A stretch of DNA of 64,000 bases from a virus. This document shows positions 9,537 through 41,293 of the stretch, piece by piece. A model generated the notes under the pieces. That model had not been told where the DNA came from and did not search any database. It worked only from the letters and a program-made list of their open reading frames with translations. Made by a program: the position numbers and the translations under genes. Position 1 is the stretch's first letter. Every line of letters begins with the position of its first letter. The stretch covers positions 14,701-78,700 of IMG/VR virus record IMGVR_UViG_3300050821_005171, one strand, 5' to 3'.

Positions 9537-9890
9537 ATGAAATTTCTGATCGTTTCGATTGCCGCTCTTGCCTGCCTGCTGCTGGGCACGTCCCAGGTCC
9601 AGGCCCACCATCACCGACATTGTTGCTGCCAGCGCGTGACTGTCTGCGTCGCGGTTCCGGCCTGCCCGTGTGGTGCTGTTTGCAACTGCGGCGCAACGTG
9701 CCCGTGTCCCGGATGTCCAGTGCATCACCCCGAGAACGTCGCTCCGGCGTGCTCAGCACCATCGTGCAATACAGGCCCAGTCGTCGCGACGCCTGCGATC
9801 GTGAAGCCGAAAGTTGTCGCGCCAGTTCCTGAGACGGCAACGCACCACGTCCACCAGAAGCAAAACCCGACCAACCGCACGAGGCACTAA
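9537..9890 (+). CDS. Secreted His/Cys-rich (metallothionein-like) protein
   Basis: Signal peptide, then HHHRHCCC...CPCGAVCNCGATCPCPGCPVHH. Confidence 0.65.
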   Translation: MKFLIVSIAALACLLLGTSQVQAHHHRHCCCQRVTVCVAVPACPCGAVCNCGATCPCPGCPVHHPENVAPACSAPSCNTGPVVATPAIVKPKVVAPVPETATHHVHQKQNPTNRTRH

Positions 9891-10005
9891 ACACAAACAG
9901 CGTCACAACTTATCCACTGTAACGCCGAGCTGAACCCGTAACGAATCCACCATCTCTTCGGTGCGGGCCGGCAAGGACAAACAAAAGGACTGGAACCACG
10001 ATGCG

Positions 10006-10344
10006 ATGGACGCAGCAACCAAAGCGCGCCTCTGGATTCTCGCTTCGAGCTTCGCTATCGCAGCGTTCGCCGGGATGGCGGCGTACCTGCGAGTCGCCAA
10101 GTGGGACCGCAGAAAGCTGCCAGAACTGGCAATGGGAGCCGCCTCCGCCCTAGCCAATGGCGGCTGCATCGGCATCATCGCATGTGCTTTCTGCTATTGG
10201 AAATACAACGGCGAACCGGATATGTTCGTCGTGTTCGGGTCAAGTTCCGCCCTCGGGCTTGGCGGATTAGAGATGGTCAACTTCGTACTCAGGATCGTCC
10301 AGCATCACATGACGCTGACGCCGGGCGATCGGGAGAAGAAATGA
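10006..10344 (+). CDS. Holin-like membrane protein (3 TM)
   Basis: Three hydrophobic segments with charged C-terminus; LydA-like holin pattern. Confidence 0.55.
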   Translation: MDAATKARLWILASSFAIAAFAGMAAYLRVAKWDRRKLPELAMGAASALANGGCIGIIACAFCYWKYNGEPDMFVVFGSSSALGLGGLEMVNFVLRIVQHHMTLTPGDREKK

Positions 10345-10880
10345 TGAGCCCGACGCTTCCCAGAAAGCTGTCTCTGGCCTCGATGGTGCTGTCGGTTACC
10401 ACGGCCATCGGCCTGGGCATCCTGTTCAACGCTCGCGAGAACGACCGCCGCGAGAATCAGGCTGCTGCCAGACTGGCGACCGACGTCAAGAAACAGGCGT
10501 CCGCCCAGGGAAACCTGATTAACACCATCCTATTCGCAACGGACCTCGCGATTGTCACGGTGAGCGATAAGGGCGACATCGTTGGCTGGAATGAGGGGGC
10601 TGTCCGCAAGTTCGGCTATACCCAAGCAGACATGATTGGAAAGTCCCTCGGCACCCTGATGCCGGATGCCCAAAGCGCTGATCGTCACAAGCGGGCGTTT
10701 AACGACCACACAGTAACCGATTGGGTGCGTCGAGGGATTGCAATGGATTGCACAATGCCCACTAAAAGCGGCGGAAAAAGGCACGTCCTGGTATTCGCCT
10801 ACGAAATCGACCAGCCGCCAGCCAAGTTTGCGGCTATCATCCATACCCCGGCGTTCGTGGTGATCAAGGACAAGGGATAG
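10341..10880 (+). CDS. Membrane-anchored PAS-domain protein
   Basis: N-terminal TM, then AIVTVSDKGDIVGWNEGAVRKFGYTQADMIGKSLGTLMP (PAS signature). No kinase domain. Confidence 0.75.
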   Translation: MMSPTLPRKLSLASMVLSVTTAIGLGILFNARENDRRENQAAARLATDVKKQASAQGNLINTILFATDLAIVTVSDKGDIVGWNEGAVRKFGYTQADMIGKSLGTLMPDAQSADRHKRAFNDHTVTDWVRRGIAMDCTMPTKSGGKRHVLVFAYEIDQPPAKFAAIIHTPAFVVIKDKG

Positions 10881-10901
10881 TGGAAGCGGCGGGCCACATG
10901 A

Positions 10902-11399
10902 ATGAAGAACGAAGACGGCGGTTGGACCATCCGGACGCTGCGTAAGTTTTCCATCCAGCAGATCAGAAACCTTGAGAAATATGTTGCGAGGCGGTTCAAG
11001 GACCTTGAGAAGCGGCTCGACCAACGGTGGTCTTCTGACCAGACAGCGATCAGTAAGGTCAATGAAATCCGGCAAGTAGTGAGTGACCTCGGGAACCGAA
11101 TCGAGAGAATGGTCAGTCGCGACGAGATGAATACTCGCATCACCTCGGTGGAAAGCCTGCTCAAAGAAGCGGCGAACACCGCGAAGGCGGCCACGGACGG
11201 CCATTTCTCAATTAACCGGGAGAAGATTGAAAAGAATGAGGCCGCTCTCGGGGCACTGTCGAAGGATGTCACTGAGCTTAAAACCAAGAGCGGCACCGTT
11301 GAGACGGGTTCGCAAAAGATATGGGAGCGAGCCGGTGTAATTATCAGCTTGGCAGTCGCCATAGCCGCGCTGGTGTCGGCATTCTGGAATAGGAAGTGA
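10902..11399 (+). CDS. Coiled-coil protein with C-terminal TM
   Basis: Heptad-rich body; C-terminal hydrophobic helix. Confidence 0.65.
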   Translation: MKNEDGGWTIRTLRKFSIQQIRNLEKYVARRFKDLEKRLDQRWSSDQTAISKVNEIRQVVSDLGNRIERMVSRDEMNTRITSVESLLKEAANTAKAATDGHFSINREKIEKNEAALGALSKDVTELKTKSGTVETGSQKIWERAGVIISLAVAIAALVSAFWNRK

Positions 11400-11403
11400 A
11401 CCC

Positions 11404-11613
11404 ATGAAGGCCGCCACTAAAAATACCCCAGAAATTCAGGAAGCCAGGGCGGTCATCGTGATGCTACTTAACGACCCGCACGGCAACTTCGGCAGCTTGC
11501 AAGTCGTCAGGGAATGCGCGAAGGGCGGCTGCCATCCTCGCGATTGCGAGAATGCTCGTCGGGTGCTCCGCGTCCTCGGGGAGAGCTGGGAAGAAGAATT
11601 GGAGGAGCGATAG
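11404..11613 (+). CDS. Hypothetical protein
   Basis: 69 aa, tightly packed in operon. Confidence 0.5.
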   Translation: MKAATKNTPEIQEARAVIVMLLNDPHGNFGSLQVVRECAKGGCHPRDCENARRVLRVLGESWEEELEER

Positions 11614-11615
11614 CA

Positions 11616-11951
11616 GTGCCGGAATGGATCAGCGGACCTTGGGGAAAGTTTCTCGCATTCATCGCCACGTCGATCGTTTCCGGCGCTGTGGCAGCCGGAA
11701 CCACGGCGGTTCATTTCTACTACGAGACGAAACAGCAAATCGCGGTTCTCAAAGAGCAGATGACTGAAGTGCAGAACCGATTAGAGCTGAGAGTCGCCGC
11801 CAACGAGCGCAAGAGCCTGAAACACGAAGTTCAGATCGCATCGGTTGTCAGGAAGCAGGACCAGATATTCGGCAAAGAAGCCCCGGTGGGCGACGCGATG
11901 CCTCAATTTTCTCCGGTCTCGCCGCCAGCTCCCAGTAAAGGACCGCAATGA
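11616..11951 (+). CDS. TM + coiled-coil protein
   Basis: GTG start after GGAGGA; one TM then coiled coil. Confidence 0.6.
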   Translation: MPEWISGPWGKFLAFIATSIVSGAVAAGTTAVHFYYETKQQIAVLKEQMTEVQNRLELRVAANERKSLKHEVQIASVVRKQDQIFGKEAPVGDAMPQFSPVSPPAPSKGPQ

Positions 11952-12373
11952 ACACTGACGACACGACCAAGGCCGCCAACAAAATCGTGGCCTGGATTGG
12001 CGCGAACAAGACCCACGTCTTCGCCGTCGCCGGGGCAGCCCTAGCCGGGGCAGGCTACTTCCTCAAGATTCTGTCCTGGGAGCAGGCGGTCGCCGTCGCC
12101 ACCGCGTGCGGAGGGTTCTCGTGGTTGCAGAACATCACAAACACCCAAACTAAACAGATCAAAGAGGCAACCGGAGACCAAACCGAGCACCTAAACCTTG
12201 CGGCCGACCTGCGCGCCGATCACATCAACGAAGTGTCAGAAACTGCGGCAGCCGCAGCGGTTACCGCCATCCGACCGGACGTCCACGAGGAAGCGGCCCA
12301 CACAAAGATCAAGCAGGCGGTTGCTAAAAAGGTCACCAAACCGCATGCTCGCAAATATCACGAACATCCGTAA
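11948..12373 (+). CDS. Holin-like 2-TM protein
   Basis: NKTHVFAVAGAALAGAGYF...AVATACGGFSWL with basic C-terminus. Confidence 0.55.
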   Translation: MNTDDTTKAANKIVAWIGANKTHVFAVAGAALAGAGYFLKILSWEQAVAVATACGGFSWLQNITNTQTKQIKEATGDQTEHLNLAADLRADHINEVSETAAAAAVTAIRPDVHEEAAHTKIKQAVAKKVTKPHARKYHEHP

Positions 12374-12401
12374 CCGAACCACTAATTTTTAGGAAAGAAA
12401 A

Positions 12402-12866
12402 ATGTCCGGACCTGTTGGAGCGACCGTTATTGTCAATCCCACCACCTACAAGGAAATGCTGGCTCGCAACGAGTCAGTGTTCCTGAAACAGCACCATTTT
12501 TTCACCAGCGGAATTTTTGCCAGCCATTGGTTCCCGCTCGACAGCGAGGCCCAGTTTGACAGCCTGCATAAGTACGCTGCCAATGCCCTCGCCGCTCAGG
12601 GTTCCGTGGACTGGACGACTGTGGGACGCCCTGGCAATCTTCAGGTGGCCAATCCGCTCAGGGCCAAAGTCCTAGCGGCCGTCATCGCCGGAGAGTACCC
12701 GGGACAGGAAACTGTTTCGGTGCTTTTGTCCGACGCCTTTGAGCTGGTAATCGCGCTTTATCTCGGCGCAGTTCAGACCCAGCTTGCCACGGGCAACTAT
12801 GGGACCACGCCAGATCAGCAGTATGCCCAGGTCCAACTGTGGCAGAACCAAGCGAACGCGGCGTAG
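12402..12866 (+). CDS. Hypothetical protein (paralog of 13606-14130)
   Basis: Collinear similarity to 13606-14130. Confidence 0.6.
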   Translation: MSGPVGATVIVNPTTYKEMLARNESVFLKQHHFFTSGIFASHWFPLDSEAQFDSLHKYAANALAAQGSVDWTTVGRPGNLQVANPLRAKVLAAVIAGEYPGQETVSVLLSDAFELVIALYLGAVQTQLATGNYGTTPDQQYAQVQLWQNQANAA

Positions 12867-12911
12867 TTTCGGGAGCCCTCATTTTCAGGAATCACGATCG
12901 GCCGCAATTTA

Positions 12912-13397
12912 ATGCCCCGGACAATCCAATGTCTGCCCATGTTCCTGTTGGTGCTAATGCCAATGACTTCTCCGGCACTAGCAGGACAGGGCCGGCAGGA
13001 GATCGTGATTGAAGTCAATCACAACAGGACCGCAGTCTGCAATTGGATCGAGCTTAAGCACCGGCTTGTCGAGGAGAGCACCGGGGCCAAGGTGGTAGCG
13101 ATCGACTACAGCACAGTGATCTTCTCGAAGGAAACTAAATACGGACTAGAGGTGTTCAATCTCCGCAGGTATGGAAGCCTCGGAGATTACCGGGGAAGGT
13201 TCACTTCTAGCCTTCGTGGCAACCTGAGAGACTTCGGATATCGAATTGTCGTCAGCCCGATCTCTGACACTAAAAGCGAAATCCGAATCTTGATGATCGC
13301 CACCTGTGAAGAAACCAGCTCGGTGGCAGTGAATATCGAGCTGCGTAAGTCATTGCGTTTGATGCGAGAGTTTTTGACGCAACATCTTGTGAATTGA
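12912..13397 (+). CDS. Secreted hypothetical protein
   Basis: Signal peptide ending in ALA. Confidence 0.6.
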   Translation: MPRTIQCLPMFLLVLMPMTSPALAGQGRQEIVIEVNHNRTAVCNWIELKHRLVEESTGAKVVAIDYSTVIFSKETKYGLEVFNLRRYGSLGDYRGRFTSSLRGNLRDFGYRIVVSPISDTKSEIRILMIATCEETSSVAVNIELRKSLRLMREFLTQHLVN

Positions 13398-13405
13398 GGT
13401 GTGAG

Positions 13406-13585
13406 ATGCCAAAGGGAATTCTGTTCTGGGTGCTCATGTTGCTGACCCTGATCTTTGGCGTTTTTTGGAACTATCGCGTTCCGGCCGGGCAGCAGCCGAA
13501 CTATGGCGTGCTCGGAATGAACCTGCTCAACTGGGTGCTTCTGGCGCTTCTCGGTTGGGCGGTGTTCGGCTTTGCAATTCAATAG
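13406..13585 (+). CDS. Small 2-TM membrane protein
   Basis: MPKGILFWVLMLL...LLALLGWAVFGFAIQ; SD GAGGTG. Confidence 0.65.
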   Translation: MPKGILFWVLMLLTLIFGVFWNYRVPAGQQPNYGVLGMNLLNWVLLALLGWAVFGFAIQ

Positions 13586-13605
13586 CCACGAGCCCGGACC
13601 TGACG

Positions 13606-14130
13606 ATGAAGTCGTATATCGCTATGCTCCAGCAGACCAAGCCCGAATACCTGAAGCACAATGCGCATTGGTGGAACCTCGGGACCCCCAACTATGGCCA
13701 GCTTGGGGATGAGCACACGTTCAACCGTTGGCACTCTGCCGCAACTCAGGCAATCGCTAAGTATGTGGCGCAGGGACATTCGCTCAACTGGACGCCGGGC
13801 CTGACGTCCTATTGCGCGGCCCTCGTGGGAGTCAAGGGTGACACCAACGCTCTGGGCGACCATACCGCATACGGATTGACGCCGAATGAGTGGAAGATCA
13901 TTGAGTTGGCCTTTGAAGCGATTGTCACGATCGCCATTGTCTTGCTTTTTCCGCCGCTAGGAATCATCGCCGGATTCGTTGCCGAGGCGGCCTGGATCAT
14001 TTGTAAATTCCTGGTGGCGTTAATCATCGCAAATCTGGCCATCGATGTTCTAAGCGGCGCCTATGGGGTCGGCGGTCAAGATTACTCGTCCCAGCTCACA
14101 TCGTGGGCGCAAGAGGCCCCTGCTGTATGA
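13606..14130 (+). CDS. Membrane protein (paralog of 12402-12866 with a hydrophobic hairpin)
   Basis: Probable start ATG 13606; long hydrophobic stretch. Confidence 0.6.
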   Translation: MKSYIAMLQQTKPEYLKHNAHWWNLGTPNYGQLGDEHTFNRWHSAATQAIAKYVAQGHSLNWTPGLTSYCAALVGVKGDTNALGDHTAYGLTPNEWKIIELAFEAIVTIAIVLLFPPLGIIAGFVAEAAWIICKFLVALIIANLAIDVLSGAYGVGGQDYSSQLTSWAQEAPAV

Positions 14131-14522
14131 GCAAGCTCGCAACAGTCGTGTTCGTCGCCGCCGTCTGCATCACCATCGTCCACCTTCGTTCAGGGAACCT
14201 CTCCGATCCAGTCCCGGGCCCAGCCCCGATAGTCACAAACAGCCAGGGCGGATTGGCACTCAAGAAGTTCGGCCAGGACGCTGCCAAGGCTTATTTTGAG
14301 CTGGAACGACGCACCAAGTTGCCCAAGGGCGACCCGCAAAAGTTCAAGAGCTTCGGTGAGCAGAAGTCTTTCCTGAAAGCCCAGGGAGCCGTTGCAGACG
14401 AGGACGCTTTCGGCCCTCTCGCCGACCGACTCTCTAAGGCGATGGGCGAAAAATACGACGAGGACAAGCTGGCTGCTGAAGAGCACAAAATCGGCCAGGA
14501 GCTGCTTGATGCCAGCAAGTAG
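14127..14522 (+). CDS. Signal-anchored protein
   Basis: N-terminal hydrophobic helix, PDPVPGPAP-like linker, helical domain. Confidence 0.6.
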   Translation: MSKLATVVFVAAVCITIVHLRSGNLSDPVPGPAPIVTNSQGGLALKKFGQDAAKAYFELERRTKLPKGDPQKFKSFGEQKSFLKAQGAVADEDAFGPLADRLSKAMGEKYDEDKLAAEEHKIGQELLDASK

Positions 14523-14730
14523 CGGCACGCCATTCGGCAAAGTACGACTGCTTATCAAGAAGGCCAAAGAGACTCCGGATGGCGCTCACGAGAAATACGT
14601 GGCACTGGCACAACTGAGAACGATAGCGGCGGCACTGATCGAGGCCGCTCCGCACGATGCCCTGATCGAGTTTTGTGAGTTCCTCTGCAAATACAGAGAG
14701 CGAATGGATGCTGCAAATACTGCTCGCTGA
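14509..14730 (+). CDS. Hypothetical protein
   Basis: Fills gap in operon, coupled at both ends. Confidence 0.4.
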   Translation: MPASSGTPFGKVRLLIKKAKETPDGAHEKYVALAQLRTIAAALIEAAPHDALIEFCEFLCKYRERMDAANTAR

Positions 14731-15163
14731 CGTCACGATCCCGATCCACTGGCCCGCTGGCGGCATTCTTAACCAGCACACGATCACGATCATGCTCTTG
14801 GGCGGAGCGGCGGCGTGGGGCGTCCTGGCGATCCACAATGCGTTTGGGCACGGCAAGAGCTTATTGGAGTCCATCACGCTCGGGATCGTGTCGGCCGAGT
14901 CGCTGCTCGAAGCTGCGTCGAAGGTTTGGCCGGCGGCCAAGGGCGGCGCCACAGAAGCCGAGAGGGATGCGGCTATTGCGTTGCGAGTGTTGCAGATTCT
15001 TGAGCAGCAACGGCAGCAGCCCGACGCTCCCCCTGGACCAGATCAGAAAATACTCCCTAAGCCTTCCCCAGCACCGGACCCCGGCCCGCTCAACCCTCCG
15101 GCAGTGACCCCACAACACGCCGCGTATCTGGCCAATCAAGCTGCACATCAAACCGTCCTGTGA
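14708..15163 (+). CDS. Membrane protein with Pro-rich tail
   Basis: TM segment(s), Pro-rich C-terminus. Confidence 0.55.
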   Translation: MLQILLADVTIPIHWPAGGILNQHTITIMLLGGAAAWGVLAIHNAFGHGKSLLESITLGIVSAESLLEAASKVWPAAKGGATEAERDAAIALRVLQILEQQRQQPDAPPGPDQKILPKPSPAPDPGPLNPPAVTPQHAAYLANQAAHQTVL

Positions 15164-15172
15164 GGTGATGTC

Positions 15173-16021
15173 TTGGCGCGAACTGACTTCTACCTGGGCT
15201 GGAACAAGGACCAGGAGCGGCGTGATCTGCTGTGGAAGAACCACACGCCGTTCGACTGGACGCGACTGAGGGCCGCATCGCCGCTGCCCGAGTTCGATCC
15301 GAGGCCGGTGCTCGCTCCACCAAAAGATCAGATGCAGACTTCGGAATGCGTGGCCTTCAGCGGGGCACTCCTTGGGGAATTGCTGAATTGGATCAAGACG
15401 CAGGGAGCGCTTATCCGATTCTCTGAGCCTCACCGCTACATTACTTCGCAAGAAAGGTCACAGCCACCAACAACAGGAAGCGATGACGGAGCCCTGATCC
15501 AAGGCTCGATTGATTCGATGCGCATGGATGGATTCGCGCTTTCAGAGACGATGCCATTCACTGGGTCTTACGTGCCCCAAGTGACACAAGCAGCGAGGGA
15601 TCAGGGACTACTTCACAAGATCAACAACTACGCCCATATTGATGGATATAATTCCGCCTTTACGTGGCTGTCTCTCGGCATTGGATGCATCCAAATTGGA
15701 ATTCCTGTCTGCGATTCTTTTATGCAGCTCACAGGCAAGGATTGCATCCTCGACGAAAGCGGATTCAAGGGATCGGTAAAGGGCGGACACGCCCTGGCAA
15801 TCATTGGATATGTTGCACGCAAGGACGCACAAGGGCGAAACTACCTGATCCTCCAAAATTCATGGGCAAGTGTCTGGGGTGACCAAGGATGCTGCCTAGT
15901 CGATCCAGCTACATTTGACCGCATTTGCAAGTCCCAAAAGTGCGAGGTCTGGGGGATCACCGATCTCACATCGTATGAAGATGCTTCAGGAAGGCTCGAT
16001 TTCTCGGGGTTTCACATCTAG
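15173..16021 (+). CDS. Papain-like cysteine peptidase (C1 family)
   Basis: PKDQMQTSECVAFS (oxyanion Gln, catalytic Cys), GGHALAIIGY (His), LQNSWASVWG (Asn). Confidence 0.9.
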   Translation: MARTDFYLGWNKDQERRDLLWKNHTPFDWTRLRAASPLPEFDPRPVLAPPKDQMQTSECVAFSGALLGELLNWIKTQGALIRFSEPHRYITSQERSQPPTTGSDDGALIQGSIDSMRMDGFALSETMPFTGSYVPQVTQAARDQGLLHKINNYAHIDGYNSAFTWLSLGIGCIQIGIPVCDSFMQLTGKDCILDESGFKGSVKGGHALAIIGYVARKDAQGRNYLILQNSWASVWGDQGCCLVDPATFDRICKSQKCEVWGITDLTSYEDASGRLDFSGFHI

Positions 16022-16089
16022 GCCAAAAACGAAGAGCAGGAGCGTTTCTACCGCCCTGCTCTTCCTGGACACCGAAAGGATTGTTTTCG

Positions 16090-16569
16090 ATGCCATTACA
16101 GAGGAATCGTATCCCACTTGCAGTCAGGTTCAAAAGGCACATCAGCGAACGGCTTCCGAACGGATGCATTTTATGGATAGGAACAGTTAACAGCCGAGGA
16201 TACGGATCGATCAATAACGGCTACGGAAAGATGCTCTATGCGCACCGCGTCGCCTGGGAACTGGCGAATGGCCCAATTCCGGCTGGACTTTTCGCCTGCC
16301 ATCGCTGCGATGTCCGACGCTGCGTGAATCCCGAGCATCTATTCCTTGGAACAGTCTCCGACAACCAAGCAGATATGGTTGCCAAGGGACGCAGCAACAG
16401 GGGCGAGAGGCACGGAAATGTCAGAGTCACCGAGCCGATCGTCCGAGAAATTCGGGCCAAATACGCGGCAGGCGGAATCACGATGGTCGAGCTTGCTATA
16501 GAGTATGGCGTTTGCAGAACGAACATCCTTCATATCGTGAACAGAAAATCCTGGAAACACGTAACCTGA
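16090..16569 (+). CDS. HNH homing endonuclease with C-terminal HTH
   Basis: CILWIG..GYG, YAHRVAW, CHRCDVRRCVNPEHLFLGT..DN motifs. Confidence 0.9.
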   Translation: MPLQRNRIPLAVRFKRHISERLPNGCILWIGTVNSRGYGSINNGYGKMLYAHRVAWELANGPIPAGLFACHRCDVRRCVNPEHLFLGTVSDNQADMVAKGRSNRGERHGNVRVTEPIVREIRAKYAAGGITMVELAIEYGVCRTNILHIVNRKSWKHVT

Positions 16570-17438
16570 TGTCCGCTCCGATCGACTGCATAGACTGTCG
16601 CCTGCTCCACGCCTGCTGCGTGATCGAGCGGATCGACTACGGCGCATCCAGCATCAATTGGACGGTGCCACCAGTCGACTTCTACGACAAGTCTGGCGAT
16701 GACGGCTGCCTGATCGGCTGCATCCCAGAAGGCGTCGTCGTGGCGTTTCGGGGGACCGAAGCGCCCAACGATTCGTCGGTTCCAGTTAAGCAGAGGCTGC
16801 TCGATTGGTGCTCAGATTTCGAGGCCAACCTTCGGCCGATGGGTACGCTGCCAGGGCTCGTTCACAACGGCTATGCCTCATCGCTTGAGGAACTGTGGCC
16901 GCAGATTGAAGCGAAGCTGATGGAGCTGCTGTCGCCAGGCGCGACAGTCTTCCTCACTGGACATTCAAAAGGCGGCGGAATGGCCGTTCTGGCAGCAGCA
17001 CGCCTCCACATGGAGTGCAGCCACTGGGCAACCGGCATGATCGATGTTGCGACATTCGCGTCCCCAAGGGCCGGAAACGACACGTTTGCCGCAGAGTTCA
17101 ACAAGGCTTTCCCTGCGTGCCGACGCTACGAATTTGGAAACGACCTAGTCGTGCATTTACCACCACACAGCAACGTCATGGCCCTCCTGAATATGTACGT
17201 TGGGGACTTTTCTCGCTGGATTGACGTCGATTACCAGTCGGTCGGCGAGCTAATCTACATAGCTAAAGATGGTGTGCCGGTCTTCAACACCCAGAGCGTC
17301 CGTGGAGAATGGCTGGCAGCCGAACGATTGGCCGGGATTACCGAAATGCTGGCCACCCTTAACTTTGAACAGATCGTGACAAATCACAGAATCGACGCGG
17401 GTTCCGGCTACATGAGAGGGGTTTGCCGAAATGAATAA
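16569..17438 (+). CDS. Class 3 lipase (alpha/beta hydrolase)
   Basis: VVAFRGT, VHNGY, FLTGHSKGG nucleophile elbow, DLVVHLPP and C-terminal His. Confidence 0.9.
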   Translation: MSAPIDCIDCRLLHACCVIERIDYGASSINWTVPPVDFYDKSGDDGCLIGCIPEGVVVAFRGTEAPNDSSVPVKQRLLDWCSDFEANLRPMGTLPGLVHNGYASSLEELWPQIEAKLMELLSPGATVFLTGHSKGGGMAVLAAARLHMECSHWATGMIDVATFASPRAGNDTFAAEFNKAFPACRRYEFGNDLVVHLPPHSNVMALLNMYVGDFSRWIDVDYQSVGELIYIAKDGVPVFNTQSVRGEWLAAERLAGITEMLATLNFEQIVTNHRIDAGSGYMRGVCRNE

Positions 17439-18729
17439 GACAGGAGTTCTTCTCGTCTGCGGAGTGCTCGCACTCGGCTATTGTCTGTTTTCCAAACCAA
17501 CCGAACAACCAGCCTCGGCCAGCCAAAGTGCGACCCCTGAGCAACAGGCTCAACCACAACCCAGCACATTCGACAAATTCATCGCCGATTGGCGCCCTGA
17601 ACATCGCGAGGAAACAAAAGCGCTCGGCCCGGTGAAAGACGCACCCAAAGAGCCGGAGGTCACGCTGCCTAAAGTGCAGGAACTGATCGAAAAGGCCGTC
17701 AAAGAGAAGGCCCAAGAAGACAAGCCTGTGATGCAGGTGATCCCGCAGGCAGAGCCGAAACCACACCATTCAGCGGCCACGAGAAAGATGAGCCGATCCG
17801 AGAGGCTCCTGCACGTTCCGGATGATCCGGCGCCTTCGGCATTTAAACTCACGGTGCTTGAAAAACGCGACATTCCCGTTGGATTCACCGGACCGGTGAT
17901 CTACTCGGCAAGTTGGTGTGAATGGTGCCCAGTTGAAAAACGGGACGTCAGGGCGGCCGGATATGCTTCCAAGTTCCGGATGGTCGAGTTGCGCAGTGAG
18001 TCCGAAGCCAAGTCCCGTCACATGGAAGAGTTGCCGGTCACAGTGTTCTTCCGGAATGGCATAGAGGTCGAGCGAACGACCGGCTACGACGGAACGCAGA
18101 AGCGACTCAACACGATTCTTCGCCACACGGACGCTCTATTCCGGGAAGCGTCATACACTCCACCGCCGGCACCTGGCGTCAAAGGTGACGCCCTCGATGA
18201 CGATCCTGTCGCTCCCGTCCAGCAACCATCATGCTCGACTCCCAAAGCTGCGCCACTGTCAGCCCCGCTTTGTTCGAGCCCGGCAAGCAGCATAGCTGCT
18301 TCGTGCTCGGCCCCTGCAACGACGTACACCGAAGTCCGTTCGTGCGCGACCCCTGACCACCCGGTTCTAGGCTATGTGGCCAACTCGGCTTCGTGTTCAA
18401 GCCCGTCCAGCAGCTACGCCTATGCCGCACCGTCGTGCTCCAGCCCGTCGAGCGTCGCCTATGCTTCGGCACCGGTCACGTATTCGTACGCGCTTCCGAC
18501 CTACAGTTATGCGGCTCCGAGTTGCAGCAGCCCGAGCTATTCGTATGGAGGCGGGAACTGTGGATCGCCCGGAGGTGGCGGTGGTGACGTGCTTGGATAC
18601 GGAGGAGGCTGGGGAAGAAATTACGGCTACTCGCCGAGCTACGGATATGGCGGTGGTTACGGAGGCGGATGGGGTGGCGGAGCATATGCCGGGAATTGTC
18701 CCGGAGGCGTCTGTTATCCTCGCTGGTAA
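17431..18729 (+). CDS. Membrane-anchored thioredoxin-like protein with Cys/Ser/Pro/Tyr/Gly repeat tail
   Basis: Signal anchor; SASWCEWCP CxxC and LPVTVFF cis-Pro loop; repeated xCxxP units (SCSTP, LCSSP, SCSAP, SCATP, SCSSP x3); ends NCPGGVCYPRW. Confidence 0.75.
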   Translation: MNKTGVLLVCGVLALGYCLFSKPTEQPASASQSATPEQQAQPQPSTFDKFIADWRPEHREETKALGPVKDAPKEPEVTLPKVQELIEKAVKEKAQEDKPVMQVIPQAEPKPHHSAATRKMSRSERLLHVPDDPAPSAFKLTVLEKRDIPVGFTGPVIYSASWCEWCPVEKRDVRAAGYASKFRMVELRSESEAKSRHMEELPVTVFFRNGIEVERTTGYDGTQKRLNTILRHTDALFREASYTPPPAPGVKGDALDDDPVAPVQQPSCSTPKAAPLSAPLCSSPASSIAASCSAPATTYTEVRSCATPDHPVLGYVANSASCSSPSSSYAYAAPSCSSPSSVAYASAPVTYSYALPTYSYAAPSCSSPSYSYGGGNCGSPGGGGGDVLGYGGGWGRNYGYSPSYGYGGGYGGGWGGGAYAGNCPGGVCYPRW

Positions 18730-18748
18730 AAACCAAGGGAACCAAACT

Positions 18749-18970
18749 GTGACGAAAAGCAAAGACTCCGACGCAGTGACGGCTGCCAAGATCACGGCGG
18801 CCAGCAACATCATCGTGGCATACGTCAACGCGGGAAACCAAGTTCGTTTGAGTGGCCACAGCGAGATCGATGTCCTGGAACATCGTGGGTTCACCGGCGA
18901 CCTGCACGACGTTGTTGAAGGCTCGATCGCGACTCTCAAAGAACACCTTTGCGGCGGCACGGAAGCATAA
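18749..18970 (+). CDS. Hypothetical protein
   Basis: GTG start after AAGGGA. Confidence 0.5.
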   Translation: MTKSKDSDAVTAAKITAASNIIVAYVNAGNQVRLSGHSEIDVLEHRGFTGDLHDVVEGSIATLKEHLCGGTEA

Positions 18971-19188
18971 CACCAAAAGCGACCGCAATCGTGTTGTGGA
19001 AACCAACCCTAACCACCAAGCAACTCTGGAGCCTCTGTGCGTCCCTCGTAATCCTGTGCGTCATGCTGATGATCGGATGCTGCATGACATGGGCCGAAAA
19101 CGTCGGCTTGCGCTACCAGCAGGAACAGACCGCCAAAAAGCTGGATCGCGTGCTGGAGATTGCCGAAAAATTCAACAAGCCCGAGTAA
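18949..19188 (+). CDS. Small TM + coiled-coil protein
   Basis: Cys-containing TM, then QQEQTAKKLDRVL; start uncertain. Confidence 0.5.
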   Translation: MRRHGSITPKATAIVLWKPTLTTKQLWSLCASLVILCVMLMIGCCMTWAENVGLRYQQEQTAKKLDRVLEIAEKFNKPE

Positions 19189-19202
19189 CGAAAGGACCCA
19201 AC

Positions 19203-19562
19203 ATGAAGCTGTTTCTCGTTCAACTGCTGGCCGAGGTGGCAATTCTGATCGGGATGGCCGATACCTCCCAGGGCCAGGACTACGTCTACCGGGTTGTTCG
19301 TCCGGCGCGTCCCGCCAAAGTGAAGGTCTACGCAACTTACCCATCCTACGGTTACGTCGCACCGGTCGTTTCGGCCCCGGTGGCTGCGTCCTACAGCTAT
19401 GCCTATCCAGCGGCCTACGGCTACTCCTACGCGGCTCCGGTTGCTTACCCGGGCACTTATGGGTACTACGGGTACGGAACGCCAGCCTGGGGCTCGTATG
19501 GAGCTTGGGCCGCTCCTCCAGCATCCAGAGGAGTGGGTTTCAACATCGGGTTTAGCTGGTAA
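19203..19562 (+). CDS. Secreted Tyr/Ala/Pro-rich protein
   Basis: SD AAAGGA, signal peptide, YSYAYP/YSYAAP repeats, C-terminal GVGFNIGFSW. Confidence 0.65.
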   Translation: MKLFLVQLLAEVAILIGMADTSQGQDYVYRVVRPARPAKVKVYATYPSYGYVAPVVSAPVAASYSYAYPAAYGYSYAAPVAYPGTYGYYGYGTPAWGSYGAWAAPPASRGVGFNIGFSW

Positions 19563-19657
19563 CCCACCTTGCAAAAGTGTTGCGAAATCGTTTCGCAATA
19601 GAACGCAAGTATTTACACAGCAATCGGTAACAAACAACGCGAAGGGACGAAATTAGC

Positions 19658-20017
19658 ATGCCAACCGTCACAATCGACAAAACAGCCCTCGACGCGATCG
19701 TCACGGCGATCACCGGGATGGCCACGGCCGTCGCCACACTTGAGAATGACCTTCAGTCACAAGCTGACAGTGGGGCAGCACTTGCGGCTGCAACCGACGA
19801 CAAGGCGGCCAAGGATGCGGCGGTCACTGCCGATGATGCGGCGCTCCAGACGGCTTACAAGGCCGTCACGGACGCCTTTACTGCGGCCAACATCCCAGTT
19901 CCCCCAATCCCGACGCCAACTCCGCCAGTGGTTCCGAGCCCGACTCCGACCCCGGCGGCACTCCGGATGCGAGCTAAGGGCCTGATCCCCCACGGAGCAG
20001 TCAAGAAGGCACCTTAA
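19658..20017 (+). CDS. Ala-rich coiled-coil protein with PT-rich tail
   Basis: SD GAAGGGA; last gene before terminators. Confidence 0.65.
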   Translation: MPTVTIDKTALDAIVTAITGMATAVATLENDLQSQADSGAALAAATDDKAAKDAAVTADDAALQTAYKAVTDAFTAANIPVPPIPTPTPPVVPSPTPTPAALRMRAKGLIPHGAVKKAP

Positions 20018-20064
20018 GCCAGGAACGTCATTCAGCGGAGGCCCTCTGCTGAATCCTGCGGTCG

Positions 20065-20107
20065 CAGCCCCGGCGCGTGCATGGATAGCCGCACCGGGGC
20101 TGTTTTT
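20065..20107 (+). terminator. Intrinsic terminator
   Basis: CAGCCCCGG...CCGGGGCTG-TTTTT. Confidence 0.7.
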
Positions 20108-20451
20108 GTTGAATCAGGTTGACTATCTGGCAGCCTTCCGGCAGAATCTCCTGCTTATGCACTGGGCTCAATTGATGATCCAAAACTCAGAATCTTCGCG
20201 TTGTTGCCGGCTGGCTACTCGCGATCTCCAAGCCCCAGCAATGATACCTGCCCGGTGCATTTGCTGGGGTTTGCTTTTGATAGGACCGTAAAAACCAAAA
20301 GCCCGGGGCTTCAGCTCCCCGGGCTTCGGTTGAATCCATTCCCAAGCACGCTTTTAATCCGCCAAGATCGTAAGGGCTCGGTGTATGTACGATAGACCCA
20401 CTGGAGCCAGCAGTCAAGCCCCATCGACCAGTCTGAACCCAATTTTTACAT

Positions 20452-20488
20452 GCGCCCATGCTCACTGAGAGCGTGGGCGTTTTTGTTT
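20452..20488 (+). terminator. Intrinsic terminator
   Basis: GCGCCCATGCTC-ACTGA-GAGCGTGGGCGT-TTTTGTTT. Confidence 0.65.
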
Positions 20489-20938
20489 GCGCTCATCATA
20501 GCCCACCTGTTCGGGCAACACGGCATTCAGCAAGTCCTATGGCGACGCCGTTCCTGAGCCCGTAACTGGGGTCACCTTTGGGTGATGGAGAAGGTCGCTA
20601 ACGTGGCAGAGTCCTAGATTTTTGGGGGATAAAGGGGGCGCGCCATGGTTGGCTCCCGGTTGCCTCCTACCAGCGCTCACTGGCATGGGCCAATCGATCC
20701 CACATGGCGCGCTAACCAGCGTCCCATTCCAATTACGGAAGAGTGTTACGCTAGACTTCCATGCAAGTTGAGCGTTCAAACCAGACAAACCGTACACGAT
20801 GGAAATTCAGCTCTGGACGATCAACCTCCCAGCTTGGATGCGAATTCCCGTCTTCTCCCACGCAGATCAGACAATCAAGCCACCAGAACGCTCCCAGGCG
20901 CGCGCATGACCCCCGGAAATTTTTAGGAGTTGTTAACA

Positions 20939-21157
20939 ATGTCGAGACGAGACTGGACCAGAGACAACTACGGACGGAACATCGATCCGACTGCTAAACC
21001 AGACTGCACTGTGTGTCACGGCCGTGGAGTGCTTATCACCTACCCACCTCCGAGCGGATGGCGGCCGGTTGAGGCAGAATGCTACGGCTGCATCGAGAAC
21101 CGTGACGACGAAAGCAAGCTGGCGACAGAGTACATCGAGCGCCCAAACCGATTATGA
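20939..21157 (+). CDS. Small zinc-finger protein
   Basis: CTVCHGRG and ECYGC; SD AGGAG. Confidence 0.65.
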   Translation: MSRRDWTRDNYGRNIDPTAKPDCTVCHGRGVLITYPPPSGWRPVEAECYGCIENRDDESKLATEYIERPNRL

Positions 21158-21165
21158 TTTCACGC

Positions 21166-21193
21166 TTGCACTGTGCTTACAACGTGCTACAAT
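21166..21193 (+). promoter_or_regulatory. Sigma70-type promoter with 13-bp motif in spacer
   Basis: TTGCAC-16-TACAAT; spacer contains GTGCTTACAACGT. Confidence 0.7.
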
Positions 21194-21203
21194 ACGGGCC
21201 GTC

Positions 21204-21815
21204 ATGGATCAAGCCAAACGCGATAAGAAGAATGCGCGAGCCCGCGCCGCGTATCGCAAAAAAGTCGGATACAATCCGCATCAACAGCAACACTGCGTCG
21301 TGTGCGGGAAAGGATTTATTAAACGTAATGGCAACCAAATCATTTGTTCTGGCCGATGTCGTCGCAGGCGCGAAAAAGAATACTTCATAAACCGCCCAGG
21401 CCGCGTCGCCGCCCGCGCCGCCCGCGCCGCAGGCTACCAACGGACCTGCAAGTTTTGCGGCTCGGATTTCATCGCACATCATGGCAATAAAGTCTCGTGC
21501 GAGACGTGCCAGTTATCTGGAAAACGAGAGCGCTGCAACAAGAGGGGGCAGCGCAATCCACTGGCGATTCGTTTCAGAAGCTGGATGCGCCAGCGTGGCG
21601 TATCCAATTCATCATTGTCTGCTGCCGAACGAAATCAATTACGATCCCTCTTCGAGCAGCAAGTAAAGGAAGAGTTATGCCTACGGAAGTCAAGAAGGGC
21701 ACTCAAAAAACTGCGAATCCTGTTCAACAAGGGACAGGTAAGCCCCAGTGCCTTGAAATCGCTAAAGCAGGAATTAGCACCGGAAGCCAGTTCGCAACCT
21801 TCATGTCCCGACTGA
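21204..21815 (+). CDS. Zinc-finger basic protein
   Basis: CVVCGKGF..CSGRC and CKFCG..CETC repeats. Confidence 0.65.
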   Translation: MDQAKRDKKNARARAAYRKKVGYNPHQQQHCVVCGKGFIKRNGNQIICSGRCRRRREKEYFINRPGRVAARAARAAGYQRTCKFCGSDFIAHHGNKVSCETCQLSGKRERCNKRGQRNPLAIRFRSWMRQRGVSNSSLSAAERNQLRSLFEQQVKEELCLRKSRRALKKLRILFNKGQVSPSALKSLKQELAPEASSQPSCPD

Positions 21816-21970
21816 TGTCCGACCTGATCGAGGGCAGCATCACGCCACAGGTCGGCAACGCGGCCGTGAACGCCGGTGGCAAGCTGCTGAAGGTCGTCGA
21901 GATGCAGTACCGGTACGGCAAGTCCACGCCGGGCGGTGCTCCACGACCAGAGCTGAATTTGCTGAACTAA
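21677..21970 (+). CDS. Hypothetical phage protein, overlapping upstream gene by 139 bp
   Basis: SD AAGGAAG; MPTEVKK...LMSDLIEGSITPQVGNAAVNAGGKLLKVVEMQ; followed by a terminator. Confidence 0.7.
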   Translation: MPTEVKKGTQKTANPVQQGTGKPQCLEIAKAGISTGSQFATFMSRLMSDLIEGSITPQVGNAAVNAGGKLLKVVEMQYRYGKSTPGGAPRPELNLLN

Positions 21971-21989
21971 CAGCATCTGGCCGTGAGCG

Positions 21990-22021
21990 AAACGGGCGGG
22001 AAACCGTCCGTTTTTCTTTTC
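21990..22021 (+). terminator. Intrinsic terminator
   Basis: AAACGGGCGG-GAAA-CCGTCCGTTT-TTCTTTT. Confidence 0.8.
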
Positions 22022-22023
22022 AC

Positions 22024-22052
22024 TTGCGTTGTGCTGACAACGTGCCTACAAT
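22024..22052 (+). promoter_or_regulatory. Sigma70-type promoter with 13-bp motif; probably leaderless transcript
   Basis: TTGCGT-17-TACAAT, spacer GTGCTGACAACGT; ATG at 22060. Confidence 0.75.
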
Positions 22053-22059
22053 GCCGTGT

Positions 22060-25000: not shown

Positions 25001-25749
25001 AAGAAGAATGCCCGTGGCAAATGGGTGCGGGACTCAAGAAAGTAGACCCAATGGCGCGCCGACGTAAGCAAAAGTTCAATGTCTATCGCAACGGCAAGAT
25101 TCACGTCTGTAAGGTGCAGTGCGAGACTTGCATCTACCGCCCTGGTAACAAATTTCACCTGGAACCCGGCAGGCTCAAGCAGATGACGCAGGACTCGCTC
25201 AAGAAAGACACGGCCGTCATTTGCCACGACACGCTCGGTGGCGACAATGCCGTGTGTCGAGGGTTTTTCGATCGGTTCAAAACCACCCCACTGCAACTCG
25301 CTGAGCGACTGGGTGTGATCGAGGAGGTTTGAGTGCCCAAGCCGGAAATCAAAGCCGTCCCCAAGAAAGACGGCGTCACGATCAACGTAGGTTTCAACGA
25401 AGAGGCCGGTCAGGTCGTCCTGCAATTCGGTCGGCCGATCGCGTGGCTCGGCCTCGACCCACAGGAATGCACGACGGTGGTCAATAACATGATCAAGGCG
25501 TGCCGGCAGATGCAGGCTCGGGCGAAGCTTAAAAAGGGGTAGGCGATGAGTAATCGGCAGTCGGCAAGCACCAAGGCTGTTTTTGGAAAATGCCCACATT
25601 GCGGCGACAGGTACAATGCCCAGGACTTACGGGACGGTAAAATCCCGACTCATGACTATCCGCGTCCGTGCCGATCCGTGTGCCCGGGCTCTGGGCAGCC
25701 GCCGAGATCGCTGTACGACAGCCGTCCGCTCGGAAAGGACATGCAGTAA
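22060..25749 (+). other. Run of small hypothetical CDSs (22060-22257, 22254-22451, 22451-22642, 22644-23075, 23072-23272, 23309-23791, 23802-23981, 23978-24262, 24252-24569, 24566-25045, 25051-25332, 25333-25542, 25546-25749)
   Basis: Head-to-tail, mostly coupled ORFs; several TM/signal peptides and CxxC motifs; no function recognised. Confidence 0.6.
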
Positions 25750-25752
25750 GCC

Positions 25753-26586: not shown

Positions 26587-26647
26587 TCTGAAATGATTTC
26601 TGAATCGACACTAAGTCTTTGCTTCATAACAACATAAGGTGACCGCG

Positions 26648-39439: not shown

Positions 39440-39468
39440 ATTGTGGCACATTGTGAGCACAAATGCAA
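39440..39468 (-). promoter_or_regulatory. Leftward promoter with 13-bp motif, overlapping the terL start codon
   Basis: TTGCAT-17-CACAAT, spacer GTGCTCACAATGT. Confidence 0.6.
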
Positions 39469-41223: not shown

Positions 41224-41293
41224 AATGCGGGCAGAAAGGCGGCCGCTATTCCGCCTCCTGCCCTGTCCACAACATGCTTTAAGGGAGCACGTC

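What the first reader, a model, noticed from the sequence alone, without database searches (positions are those of the whole stretch)
9537..20017. Envelope/lysis-like cassette built on a papain protease, a lipase and a thioredoxin, with no recognisable endolysin
Seen: about 20 tightly coupled plus-strand genes, most with TM or signal sequences. They include two holin-like proteins, TM+coiled-coil proteins, a C1 papain-like protease with intact Q/C/H/N, a class-3 lipase with GHSKGG, and an anchored CxxC thioredoxin-like protein. I recognise no amidase, lysozyme, transglycosylase or M23/M15 domain in the window. Established: holin neighbourhoods normally hold the muralytic enzyme; mycobacteriophage LysB is a precedent for a lipolytic lysis enzyme; planctomycete envelopes have been described as rich in Cys/Pro proteins. 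Inference: a reduce-proteolyse-delipidate exit system aimed at a disulfide-linked proteinaceous envelope.
Basis: partly seen in the sequence, partly recalled or inferred. Interest (0 to 1): 0.75.

Follow-up and report, generated by a model that had tools for sequence, protein, structure and literature searches.

The report
Phage papain-protease, thioredoxin, lipase envelope cassette
A large uncultured phage, probably of planctomycete bacteria, carries a block of membrane-protein genes built around a papain-type protease and an exported thioredoxin (here also a lipase); the protease-thioredoxin core recurs in distant phages where a cell-wall-cutting lysis enzyme would normally sit, so it is probably an undescribed way of opening the host envelope, though nothing has been tested at the bench.

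Summary
Window 9537-20017 is one plus-strand block of 21 tightly coupled genes, closed by terminators at 20251-20480. It is strongly enriched in TM or signal proteins (16/20 against 14/107 elsewhere, p=5e-9). It contains a genuine C1A peptidase with an invariant Q/C/H/N set, a class-3 lipase and an anchored thioredoxin-fold CxxC protein.

No muralytic Pfam family was found in the 78.7-kb record. However, that record is only about 76% complete, and the same proteins sit on a 110.6-kb contig I could not fetch.

The strongest evidence is comparative. An exported thioredoxin follows the peptidase in 10 of 12 divergent lineages. These include prophages in Planctomycetota genomes, one of them directly upstream of the terminase. 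Small membrane or lipoproteins lie upstream, and no canonical lysin was found nearby.

The lipase is lineage-specific. A planctomycete host is supported. The premise of a wall without peptidoglycan is outdated.

Verdict: probable non-canonical lysis or envelope-opening module; the mechanism is inferred. The scan has met this module before in at least 23 other genomes.

The parts
9537..9890 (+). g1: secreted Cys-rich protein (117 aa, 14 Cys, His run after the signal peptide)
   Evidence: Signal-like N-terminus and composition. No Pfam or PHROG hit.
9961..10344 (+). g2: membrane protein with 2-3 TM segments, holin-like
   Evidence: TM segments. Weak phrog_785 holin match, E 0.0045.
10341..10880 (+). 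g3: N-terminal TM anchor plus PAS domain
   Evidence: PAS_9 E 5.9e-8 and PAS E 1.4e-7. ATGA overlap with g2.
10902..11399 (+). g4: coiled-coil protein with a C-terminal TM anchor
   Evidence: TM at residues 144-162. Only weak hits.
11404..11613 (+). g5: small soluble protein (69 aa), unknown
   Evidence: ORF with coding signature. No family hit.
11616..11951 (+). g6: N-terminal TM, coiled coil and Pro-rich tail; shape like an i-spanin
   Evidence: GTG start at 11616, corrected. TM segment.
11948..12373 (+). g7: single-TM protein (141 aa)
   Evidence: ATGA overlap with g6.
12402..12866 (+). g8: 154-aa protein, unknown
   Evidence: No Pfam or PHROG hit. The ESM Atlas search gave only noise and a low-confidence model.
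12912..13397 (+). g9: secreted protein (161 aa) with a signal peptide
13394..13585 (+). g10: 63-aa protein with two TM segments; holin-like by topology
   Evidence: Two TM segments. No family hit.
13606..14130 (+). g11: soluble N-terminal domain plus two C-terminal TM segments
14127..14522 (+). g12: N-terminally anchored exported helical protein; possible counterpart of the exported partner family found upstream of the peptidase in relatives
   Evidence: TM at residues 2-20. hhalign against family A7 gives E 0.017 with low probability, so this is only suggestive.
14509..14730 (+). g13: small soluble protein (73 aa)
14708..15163 (+). g14: TM protein with a Pro-rich C-terminal half
15173..16021 (+). 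g15: C1A papain-family cysteine peptidase. It has no signal peptide and a conserved N-terminal extension of about 40 aa, probably a short pro-segment.
   Evidence: PF00112 49.3 bits. PDB profile hits E 1e-13. AF2 pLDDT 88.6. Foldseek's best matches are procathepsin L and xylellain 3OIS. Catalytic residues are invariant.
16081..16569 (+). g16: HNH homing-type endonuclease inserted between peptidase and lipase
   Evidence: HNH_3 E 1e-15. phrog_1872 E 1.5e-30.
16569..17438 (+). g17: class-3 lipase with GHSKGG and no signal peptide
   Evidence: PF01764 76.6 bits. phrog_21992 esterase/lipase. A 52%-identity homologue lies on the same 76.6-kb contig as the 63%-identity peptidase homologue.
17431..18729 (+). 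g18: N-terminally anchored thioredoxin-fold protein (WCEWC) with a long Ser/Tyr/Gly/Cys-rich tail ending in CPGGVCYPRW
   Evidence: Profile A5 against PDB thioredoxins, E 5e-8. AF2 model pLDDT 78.8. Foldseek returns thioredoxins. TM at residues 3-21.
18991..19188 (+). Small putative lipoprotein (65 aa, lipobox LMIGC); o-spanin-like in size
   Evidence: Lipobox scan. Coding signature GC3 0.72. Function untested.
19203..19562 (+). g19: secreted Tyr/Gly/Ala/Pro-rich protein ending in GFSW
19658..20017 (+). g20: Ala/Pro/Thr-rich protein (119 aa)
20251..20480 (+). Terminator-like hairpins that close the cassette, including a 12-bp stem with a T-run at 20452-20480

Best explanation
This is the envelope-opening (lysis-type) gene block of a roughly 110-kb tailed phage of planctomycete bacteria.

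The conserved core has four elements:
- small holin-like membrane proteins
- an exported anchored or lipoprotein partner
- a cytoplasmically made, probably latent C1A papain-family cysteine peptidase
- a Sec-exported, membrane-anchored thioredoxin-fold CxxC protein

Proposed mechanism (inferred):
1. At the end of infection the membrane proteins let the signal-less peptidase, and in this phage the signal-less class-3 lipase, reach the periplasm.
2. There the pre-positioned thioredoxin sets the thiol state. It either keeps or makes the catalytic Cys59 reduced, or reduces disulfides in target proteins.
3. The peptidase then cuts envelope proteins or wall-tethering peptides.
4. The lipase, a lineage-specific addition that arrived beside an HNH endonuclease, attacks outer-membrane lipid. 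Spanins or mycobacteriophage LysB do the equivalent job elsewhere.

Shown: the identities of the enzymes, the conservation of the catalytic residues, the exported or anchored topology, the gene linkage across distant lineages and the position beside late genes.

Inferred: the lysis role, the substrate, the order of events and the role of the thioredoxin.
For: Enzyme identities.

Linkage: the peptidase is followed by an exported CxxC thioredoxin in the window, L003, L004/5/8, L009, L015, L017, L019, L046, L047 and L048. That is 10 of 12 lineages at only 23-35% peptidase identity.

Upstream genes: small TM or lipoproteins lie upstream in every locus with upstream sequence. An exported helical family lies directly upstream in at least 8 loci.

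Position: in the G364 prophage the module lies on the late strand just before the gpA terminase, lambda-type portal, ClpP and major capsid genes. In L004-L008 it lies between RusA and structural genes.

No canonical lysin found:
- none in 103 ORFs of 7 metagenomic loci
- ten lysin families absent from the G364 prophage
- no muralytic family in the 78.7-kb record

L009 has the peptidase fused to an N-terminal TM anchor, which fits periplasmic action.

Foldseek's best matches are zymogen forms and xylellain, which suggests latency.

The cassette is a single terminator-closed unit, strongly enriched in membrane proteins.

Host: planctomycete prophages carry the module, and a capsid relative is integrated in a Pirellulaceae contig.
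Against: - The record is about 76% complete, and the same proteins lie on a 110.6-kb contig. A canonical endolysin could sit in the unseen 25-30 kb.
- No C1-family peptidase is known to act in phage lysis. Known peptidoglycan-cutting papain-like enzymes belong to the NlpC/P60, CHAP and Amidase_5/6 families (PMC10318531).
- Holin assignments rest on topology and one weak hit.
- Twenty-one genes is far more than a lysis cassette needs.
- Most relatives are fragments.
- Pfam negatives cannot exclude a novel muralytic fold among the unknown small proteins.
- Timing of expression is unknown.
Confidence: 0.55

Rival explanations
1. Accessory envelope module. A conventional endolysin encoded in the unseen part of the genome does the wall cutting. 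This block only helps, for example by removing surface or outer-membrane proteins and lipid, or it serves superinfection exclusion or membrane remodelling.
For: About 25-30 kb of the genome is missing. The block has 21 genes, many more than lysis needs. The lipase and HNH are clearly add-ons.
Against: No lysin family was found in a whole planctomycete prophage that carries the module. None was found in 7 further loci. The module occupies the lysis-cassette position in relatives.
Confidence: 0.22
2. The peptidase is itself a peptidoglycan stem-peptide or cross-link endopeptidase. That would make it a new catalytic family of true endolysin, and the thioredoxin would be its periplasmic redox activator. 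A loose parallel is the disulfide-caged catalytic cysteine of the phage P1 SAR endolysin.
For: Planctomycetes do have peptidoglycan (PMC4432640). Other papain-fold families cut peptidoglycan (PMC10318531). The gene sits in the endolysin position, has no signal peptide and has invariant catalytic residues. Five planctomycete genomes lack most common wall-hydrolase families, which hints at an unusual wall.
Against: Sequence and fold place it with protein-cleaving C1A enzymes such as cathepsin L and xylellain, not with CHAP or NlpC/P60. No cell-wall-binding domain is present.
Confidence: 0.15
3. Not a lysis function at all. The peptidase-thioredoxin pair processes or matures exported phage or host proteins, or acts in host takeover or as a lysogenic-conversion trait.
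For: Several Cys-rich and Tyr/Gly-rich secreted proteins are encoded in the same block and could be substrates or clients. The pair also occurs in two planctomycete loci that lie among host-like genes (G214 and G163).
Against: The pair is consistently placed with holin-like proteins next to late structural genes. The peptidase lacks an export signal while its partners are exported. That pattern is typical of holin-dependent lysis enzymes.
Confidence: 0.08

Closest known systems
Holin-endolysin-spanin lysis cassettes of tailed phages (lambda S-R-Rz/Rz1 type)
   Same: Cluster of small membrane proteins, a signal-less enzyme and anchored or lipoprotein periplasmic partners. In relatives it sits just upstream of the terminase and structural genes.
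   Different: The enzyme is a C1A protease, not a muralytic enzyme. An exported thioredoxin is an obligate neighbour. The block here is 21 genes long and also carries a lipase. No function has been tested.
Xylellain (Xylella fastidiosa, PDB 3OIS) and procathepsin L-type C1A peptidases
   Same: Papain fold and Q/C/H/N catalytic set. A short N-terminal segment aligns with the pro-region of zymogens (Foldseek TMq 0.72 to 3OIS).
   Different: 16-23% identity. No I29 prodomain and no signal peptide. Phage-encoded and always beside membrane proteins and a thioredoxin.
Mycobacteriophage LysB (lipolytic lysis enzyme)
   Same: A lipid esterase encoded with lysis genes, thought to detach or breach the outer lipid layer. 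This is an analogy from general knowledge.
   Different: This enzyme is a class-3 (PF01764) lipase. I ran no sequence or fold comparison with LysB here. It is not conserved in distant relatives of the module.
Membrane-anchored periplasmic thioredoxins (TlpA/ResA/CcmG type) and lysosomal GILT with cathepsins
   Same: An N-terminal anchor plus an exported CxxC thioredoxin fold. GILT is a precedent for a thiol reductase working with papain-family proteases (general knowledge).
   Different: No Pfam thioredoxin family reaches threshold. Minimal glutaredoxin-size fold. Long low-complexity Cys-loop tail. Redox direction and electron source are unknown.
Baculovirus V-CATH cathepsin with chitinase (host liquefaction)
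   Same: A virus-encoded C1A protease used late to break down host barriers and release progeny (general knowledge).
   Different: That is a eukaryotic virus acting on a tissue-level target, with no thioredoxin or holin partners. This is analogy only.

Membership tests
Peptidase family C1 (papain), subfamily C1A | Significant match to PF00112 above the gathering score | tested here: met
   49.3 bits against a cut-off of 20.7, residues 42-243. Profile hits to papain-family PDB chains at E 1e-13.
Peptidase family C1 (papain), subfamily C1A | Catalytic Gln-Cys-His-Asn in register | tested here: met
   Q53, C59, H206 and N229 are invariant in 15 homologues.
Peptidase family C1 (papain), subfamily C1A | Two-lobed papain fold | tested here: met
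   AF2 pLDDT 88.6, pTM 0.89. Foldseek probability 1.00 to cathepsins and xylellain.
Peptidase family C1 (papain), subfamily C1A | Signal peptide and I29-type prodomain typical of secreted C1A zymogens | tested here: not met
   No hydrophobic N-terminus and no I29 Pfam hit. There is only a conserved extension of about 40 aa.
Class-3 lipase (PF01764) | Match above the gathering score with a GxSxG nucleophile elbow | tested here: met
   76.6 bits against a cut-off of 22; GHSKGG motif.
Class-3 lipase (PF01764) | Complete Ser-Asp-His triad | tested here: inconclusive
   Candidate Asp (GNDLVVHLPP) and His residues are visible in the sequence. No alignment to a solved lipase was made.
Thioredoxin-fold thiol:disulfide oxidoreductase | CxxC at the N-terminus of helix 1 in a beta-alpha-beta-alpha-beta-beta-alpha fold | tested here: met
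   Both Cys are invariant in 8 homologues. AF2 topology fits. PDB thioredoxins are hit by profile at E 5e-8 and by Foldseek.
Thioredoxin-fold thiol:disulfide oxidoreductase | Pfam thioredoxin-clan family above threshold | tested here: not met
   No Pfam family at E<=0.01 for the full protein.
Holin-endolysin-spanin lysis cassette | A muralytic endolysin (glycosidase, amidase or peptidoglycan endopeptidase) | tested here: not met
   None was found in the record, in 7 related loci or in the G364 prophage. The record is incomplete.
Holin-endolysin-spanin lysis cassette | Holin: a small protein with one or more TM segments and a charged C-terminus, from a recognised family | tested here: inconclusive
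   Candidates by topology are g2 and g10. The only family hit is phrog_785 at E 0.0045.
Holin-endolysin-spanin lysis cassette | Spanin pair: an N-terminally anchored coiled-coil protein plus a small outer-membrane lipoprotein | tested here: inconclusive
   g6 and g12 are anchored helical proteins. A 65-aa lipobox ORF lies at 18991-19188. Lipoprotein partners occur in relatives. None shows homology to known spanins.
Holin-endolysin-spanin lysis cassette | Late expression and a lysis phenotype | not testable with these tools
   Only position is available: the module is adjacent to late genes in relatives.
LysB-type lipolytic lysis enzymes | Homology to mycobacteriophage LysB esterases | not tested
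   No LysB sequence was compared. The PHROG hit is 'esterase/lipase', category 'other', not lysis.

The most novel reading that the evidence does not exclude
Phages of Planctomycetota have replaced the muralytic endolysin with a latent papain-family protease. An exported phage thioredoxin switches it on in the periplasm or assists it there. In this lineage a lipase supplements it to breach the outer membrane. This would be a protease- and redox-based lysis pathway with no described counterpart among tailed phages.
Probability: 0.35. Interest if true: 0.85.

Novelty: new variant of a known kind. Interest (0 to 1): 0.66.

Why it matters
All characterised tailed phages of walled bacteria lyse with a peptidoglycan-degrading endolysin. 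A conserved cassette built instead on a papain-type protease and an exported thioredoxin would be a new solution to phage exit. It would say something concrete about what holds the planctomycete envelope together, which is still an open question even now that peptidoglycan has been found there. It would also supply new envelope-active enzymes and a redox-controlled protease switch. The module is compact, recurs in many uncultured phages and occurs in prophages of sequenced Planctomycetota. The idea can therefore be tested directly by expression and by genetics in existing planctomycete model strains.

Tried and rejected
- Close relatives: single-protein scans for the peptidase in IMG/VR and for the terminase in GTDB genomes found nothing.
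A DNA pattern from the record's end found no overlapping viral record. 'Relatives' is not defined for a virus record.
- tblastn of all phage proteins against the related loci found only the peptidase and RusA, so the thioredoxin link had to be shown by profile.
- The ESM Atlas search for the unknown g8 gave noise only.
- The exported partner family A7 has no solved relative. Its link to window g12 is not significant.
- A search for a shared promoter motif upstream of g1 gave only chance-level matches. Timing stays open.
- The Pfam list for the G364 prophage was cut at 25 of 61 families, so lysin families had to be sought one at a time.
- A YkuD L,D-transpeptidase gene near that prophage is the genome's only copy and lies outside the phage-strand block, so I read it as a host gene.
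- The Pirellulaceae contig with the related capsid ends 1 kb past that gene, so it cannot show whether that relative has the cassette.
- Rejected idea: the peptidase as prohead protease. The phage already has an XkdF-type head protease next to the portal.


Full report
**What the window is**

The window is the last 64 kb of a single 78,700-bp IMG/VR virus record. The record is linear, and CheckV puts it at 76% complete. It is a tailed phage:
- portal fused to a Mu-F domain, an XkdF-type head protease and an HK97-type capsid protein on the minus strand at 30-38 kb
- large terminase at 39463-41223
- a tail and glycosyltransferase operon on the minus strand from 9489 leftwards, including an 1884-aa protein

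The plus-strand block 9537-27304 lies between the tail and head operons. The same peptidase, lipase and capsid proteins also occur on a 110,555-bp contig from another assembly. Capsid relatives sit on 110-115-kb contigs. The true genome is therefore about 110 kb, and 25-30 kb is unseen.

**Checking the observation**

Between 9537 and 20017 I count 21 plus-strand genes.
- They overlap by 1-23 nt at eight junctions, four of them ATGA.
- Terminator-like hairpins at 20251-20268 and 20452-20480 close the block.
- A roughly 900-bp stretch without convincing ORFs follows.
- Sixteen of 20 cassette proteins have a hydrophobic TM or signal segment, against 14 of 107 in the rest of the genome (Fisher p=5e-9). 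One of the sixteen is an internal strand of the peptidase.

Peptidase (15173-16021):
- It matches PF00112 at 49.3 bits.
- A family profile hits papain, actinidin, falcipain, cathepsins and xylellain at about E 1e-13.
- Q53, C59, H206 and N229 are invariant in 15 homologues that share only 23-62% identity.
- The AF2 model is confident (pLDDT 88.6, pTM 0.89).
- Foldseek's best matches are zymogen forms (procathepsin L, pro-Amb a 11) and the short bacterial enzyme xylellain (3OIS, TMq 0.72), aligned over nearly the whole length.
- The conserved N-terminal extension of about 40 aa (invariant G9 and E15) therefore probably acts as a short pro-segment.
- It has no signal peptide.

Lipase (16569-17438): it matches PF01764 at 76.6 bits and has the GHSKGG motif.

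Thioredoxin-like protein (17431-18729):
- It has no Pfam hit.
- A profile of its CxxC domain with seven homologues matches solved thioredoxins and a glutaredoxin-like protein (E 5e-8 to 1e-4).
- The AF2 model is a beta-alpha-beta-alpha-beta-beta-alpha fold with CxxC at the start of helix 1.
- Foldseek returns only thioredoxins.

Also unmentioned were a TM-PAS protein at 10341-10880 and a small lipobox ORF at 18991-19188. Holin assignments are by topology. The only family hit is phrog_785 at E 0.0045 for 9961-10344.

**Is an endolysin really absent?**

Pfam scans of about 119 ORFs covering the whole 78.7-kb record found no muralytic family at E<=0.01. Six-frame searches for GH24, Amidase_2, SLT, NlpC/P60, CHAP, GH25 and M15_3 were also empty. 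It cannot establish absence, because a quarter of the genome is missing.

**Comparative evidence**

This is the main result. The peptidase has a 63%-identity relative on a 76.6-kb contig, and that contig also carries a 52%-identity lipase homologue. I could not read that contig. Profile-based scans found more distant relatives (23-35% identity) in three sources:
- IMG/VR and metagenome contigs
- GTDB genomes
- a sample of 401 Planctomycetota genomes

In 10 of 12 distinct lineages with enough downstream sequence, the peptidase gene is followed by an exported thioredoxin-like CxxC protein. The gene follows directly or after one small ORF, and the protein carries a signal peptide, lipobox or TM anchor. 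These lineages are the window, L003, L004/5/8, L009, L015, L017, L019, L046, L047 and L048. The two exceptions:
- L014 has instead a TM protein with a low-complexity region and a C-terminal CxxGxCY loop.
- L016/L018 go straight into tail genes.

Upstream there are always two to four small TM or lipoproteins. In at least eight loci an exported helical protein family lies directly before the peptidase. The window's g12 resembles it only weakly (hhalign E 0.017). In L009 the peptidase itself carries an N-terminal TM anchor.

The lipase, HNH and the other window genes are not found in these distant loci.

Position of the module:
- In L004-L008 it lies between RusA/regulatory genes and tail genes.
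- In a Planctomycetota chromosome (G364) it lies on the late strand of a prophage. A 114-aa, a 1065-aa and two further small ORFs separate it from the gpA-type terminase, lambda-type portal, ClpP and Mu gpT capsid genes.
- This is close to where lambda keeps S-R-Rz.

Tests for a canonical lysin near the module:
- No muralytic Pfam family occurs among 103 ORFs of seven metagenomic loci.
- Ten lysin families were searched across the entire G364 genome and four other planctomycete genomes.
- They give no hit inside or near the peptidase loci. The single Amidase_2 genes and the M23 hits are hundreds of kb away or on other contigs.

**Host**

Evidence for a planctomycete host:
- One relative (L009) is in a Planctomycetaceae MAG.
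- The peptidase profile hits 14 of 401 Planctomycetota genomes against 4 of 401 Pseudomonadota at E<=1e-15. Strong full-length matches (E<=1e-28) number 5 against 0. Both counts include the seed genome, and the numbers are small.
- A capsid relative (51% identity, with syntenic portal, protease and terminase) lies in a Pirellulaceae MAG contig. It sits directly beside an AcrB/HlyD/OEP efflux operon and a DUF1559 gene, which are host genes.

A planctomycete host is therefore well supported, though by binning and integration of relatives, not for this exact phage. Lipase homologues in named bacteria are from other phyla.

**Interpretation**

It holds that the protease, thioredoxin and membrane proteins form a functional exit module. 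The linkage it proposed as a test is indeed found, and the refuting outcomes it named (not linked in relatives; a canonical cassette nearby) were not seen where I could look.

Three corrections are needed.
1. The lipase is a lineage-specific addition that sits next to a mobile HNH gene. It is not part of the conserved system.
2. The premise of a peptidoglycan-free, purely proteinaceous wall is outdated (PMC4432640; PMC5394234). The substrate could be envelope proteins, wall tethers or even peptide stems.
3. The thioredoxin may act on the enzyme rather than on the envelope. A cysteine protease working in the periplasm needs its thiol protected or unmasked. The disulfide-caged catalytic cysteine of the P1 SAR endolysin and lysosomal GILT with cathepsins are precedents (general knowledge).

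I found no paper describing a C1-family peptidase in phage lysis. A recent classification of papain-like enzymes lists NlpC/P60, CHAP and Amidase_5/6 as the peptidoglycan-related families, not C1 (PMC10318531).

**Earlier notes of this scan**

I consulted them after most of my analysis. They report the same module in at least 23 other genomes, with follow-ups reaching similar conclusions. One concerns a complete phage genome. I treat these as leads only. My results reproduce the linkage, the planctomycete association and the xylellain-like fold independently.

**Verdict**

The most likely reading (0.55) is a non-canonical lysis or envelope-opening module. The main rival is an accessory role beside an unseen conventional endolysin. 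It is a new variant of a known kind of system, unproven but directly testable.

Noticed in passing
window 18690-18729; L003:4780-4813; L014:5770-5795: The thioredoxin proteins of the window and L003, and the TM protein that replaces the thioredoxin in L014, end in a shared Cys-loop motif after a Tyr/Gly/Ser-rich tail: CPGGVCYPRW, CYGGVCYPW and CANGNCY. Function unknown; possibly an outer-membrane or wall-docking tip.
   Followed up: partly
window 9537-9890 and 19203-19562: Two odd secreted proteins. One has 14 Cys in CxC/CPC runs after an HHHRH stretch. The other is Tyr/Gly/Ala/Pro-rich and ends in GFNIGFSW, which looks like an outer-membrane beta-signal. Neither has a family hit.
   Followed up: no
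window 18991-19188: A 65-aa ORF with a lipobox (LMIGC) and a good coding signature lies between the thioredoxin gene and g19. It is a candidate small outer-membrane lipoprotein, similar in size to an o-spanin.
   Followed up: partly
window 20018-20930: About 900 bp without convincing ORFs. It holds facing terminator-like hairpins (20251-20268 +, 20327-20298 -, 20452-20480 +) and sigma-70-like hexamers. It is probably the boundary between two transcription units.
   Followed up: no
window 25753-26586: A class-II glutamine amidotransferase-like (Ntn hydrolase, GATase_4 E 1.4e-14) gene lies in the same plus-strand region. This is unusual for a phage, and its role is unknown.
   Followed up: no
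G364, G214, G163, G230, G005 (whole genomes): Five Planctomycetota genomes gave no match at E<=0.01 to GH24, SLT, Amidase_3, M15_3, M15_4, NlpC/P60 or GH25. Each has a single Amidase_2. The set of wall hydrolases in these hosts looks unusually sparse by standard families.
   Followed up: partly
L067:1041-9781 next to L067:9934-18180: In a Pirellulaceae MAG contig, a head module related to this phage (capsid 51%, portal 43%) abuts an AcrB/HlyD/OEP efflux operon and a DUF1559 gene. This is either an integrated prophage end or a chimeric contig.
   Followed up: partly
window 16081-16569 and 41123-42043: There are two HNH endonuclease genes. One is wedged between peptidase and lipase and the other lies just after the terminase. 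This suggests homing-endonuclease traffic shaped the cassette.
   Followed up: no
L065:16187-17566 (G364:C1:670688-671056): The only YkuD L,D-transpeptidase gene of that genome lies a few kb before the prophage that carries the peptidase module. I read it as a host gene, but did not resolve the point.
   Followed up: partly
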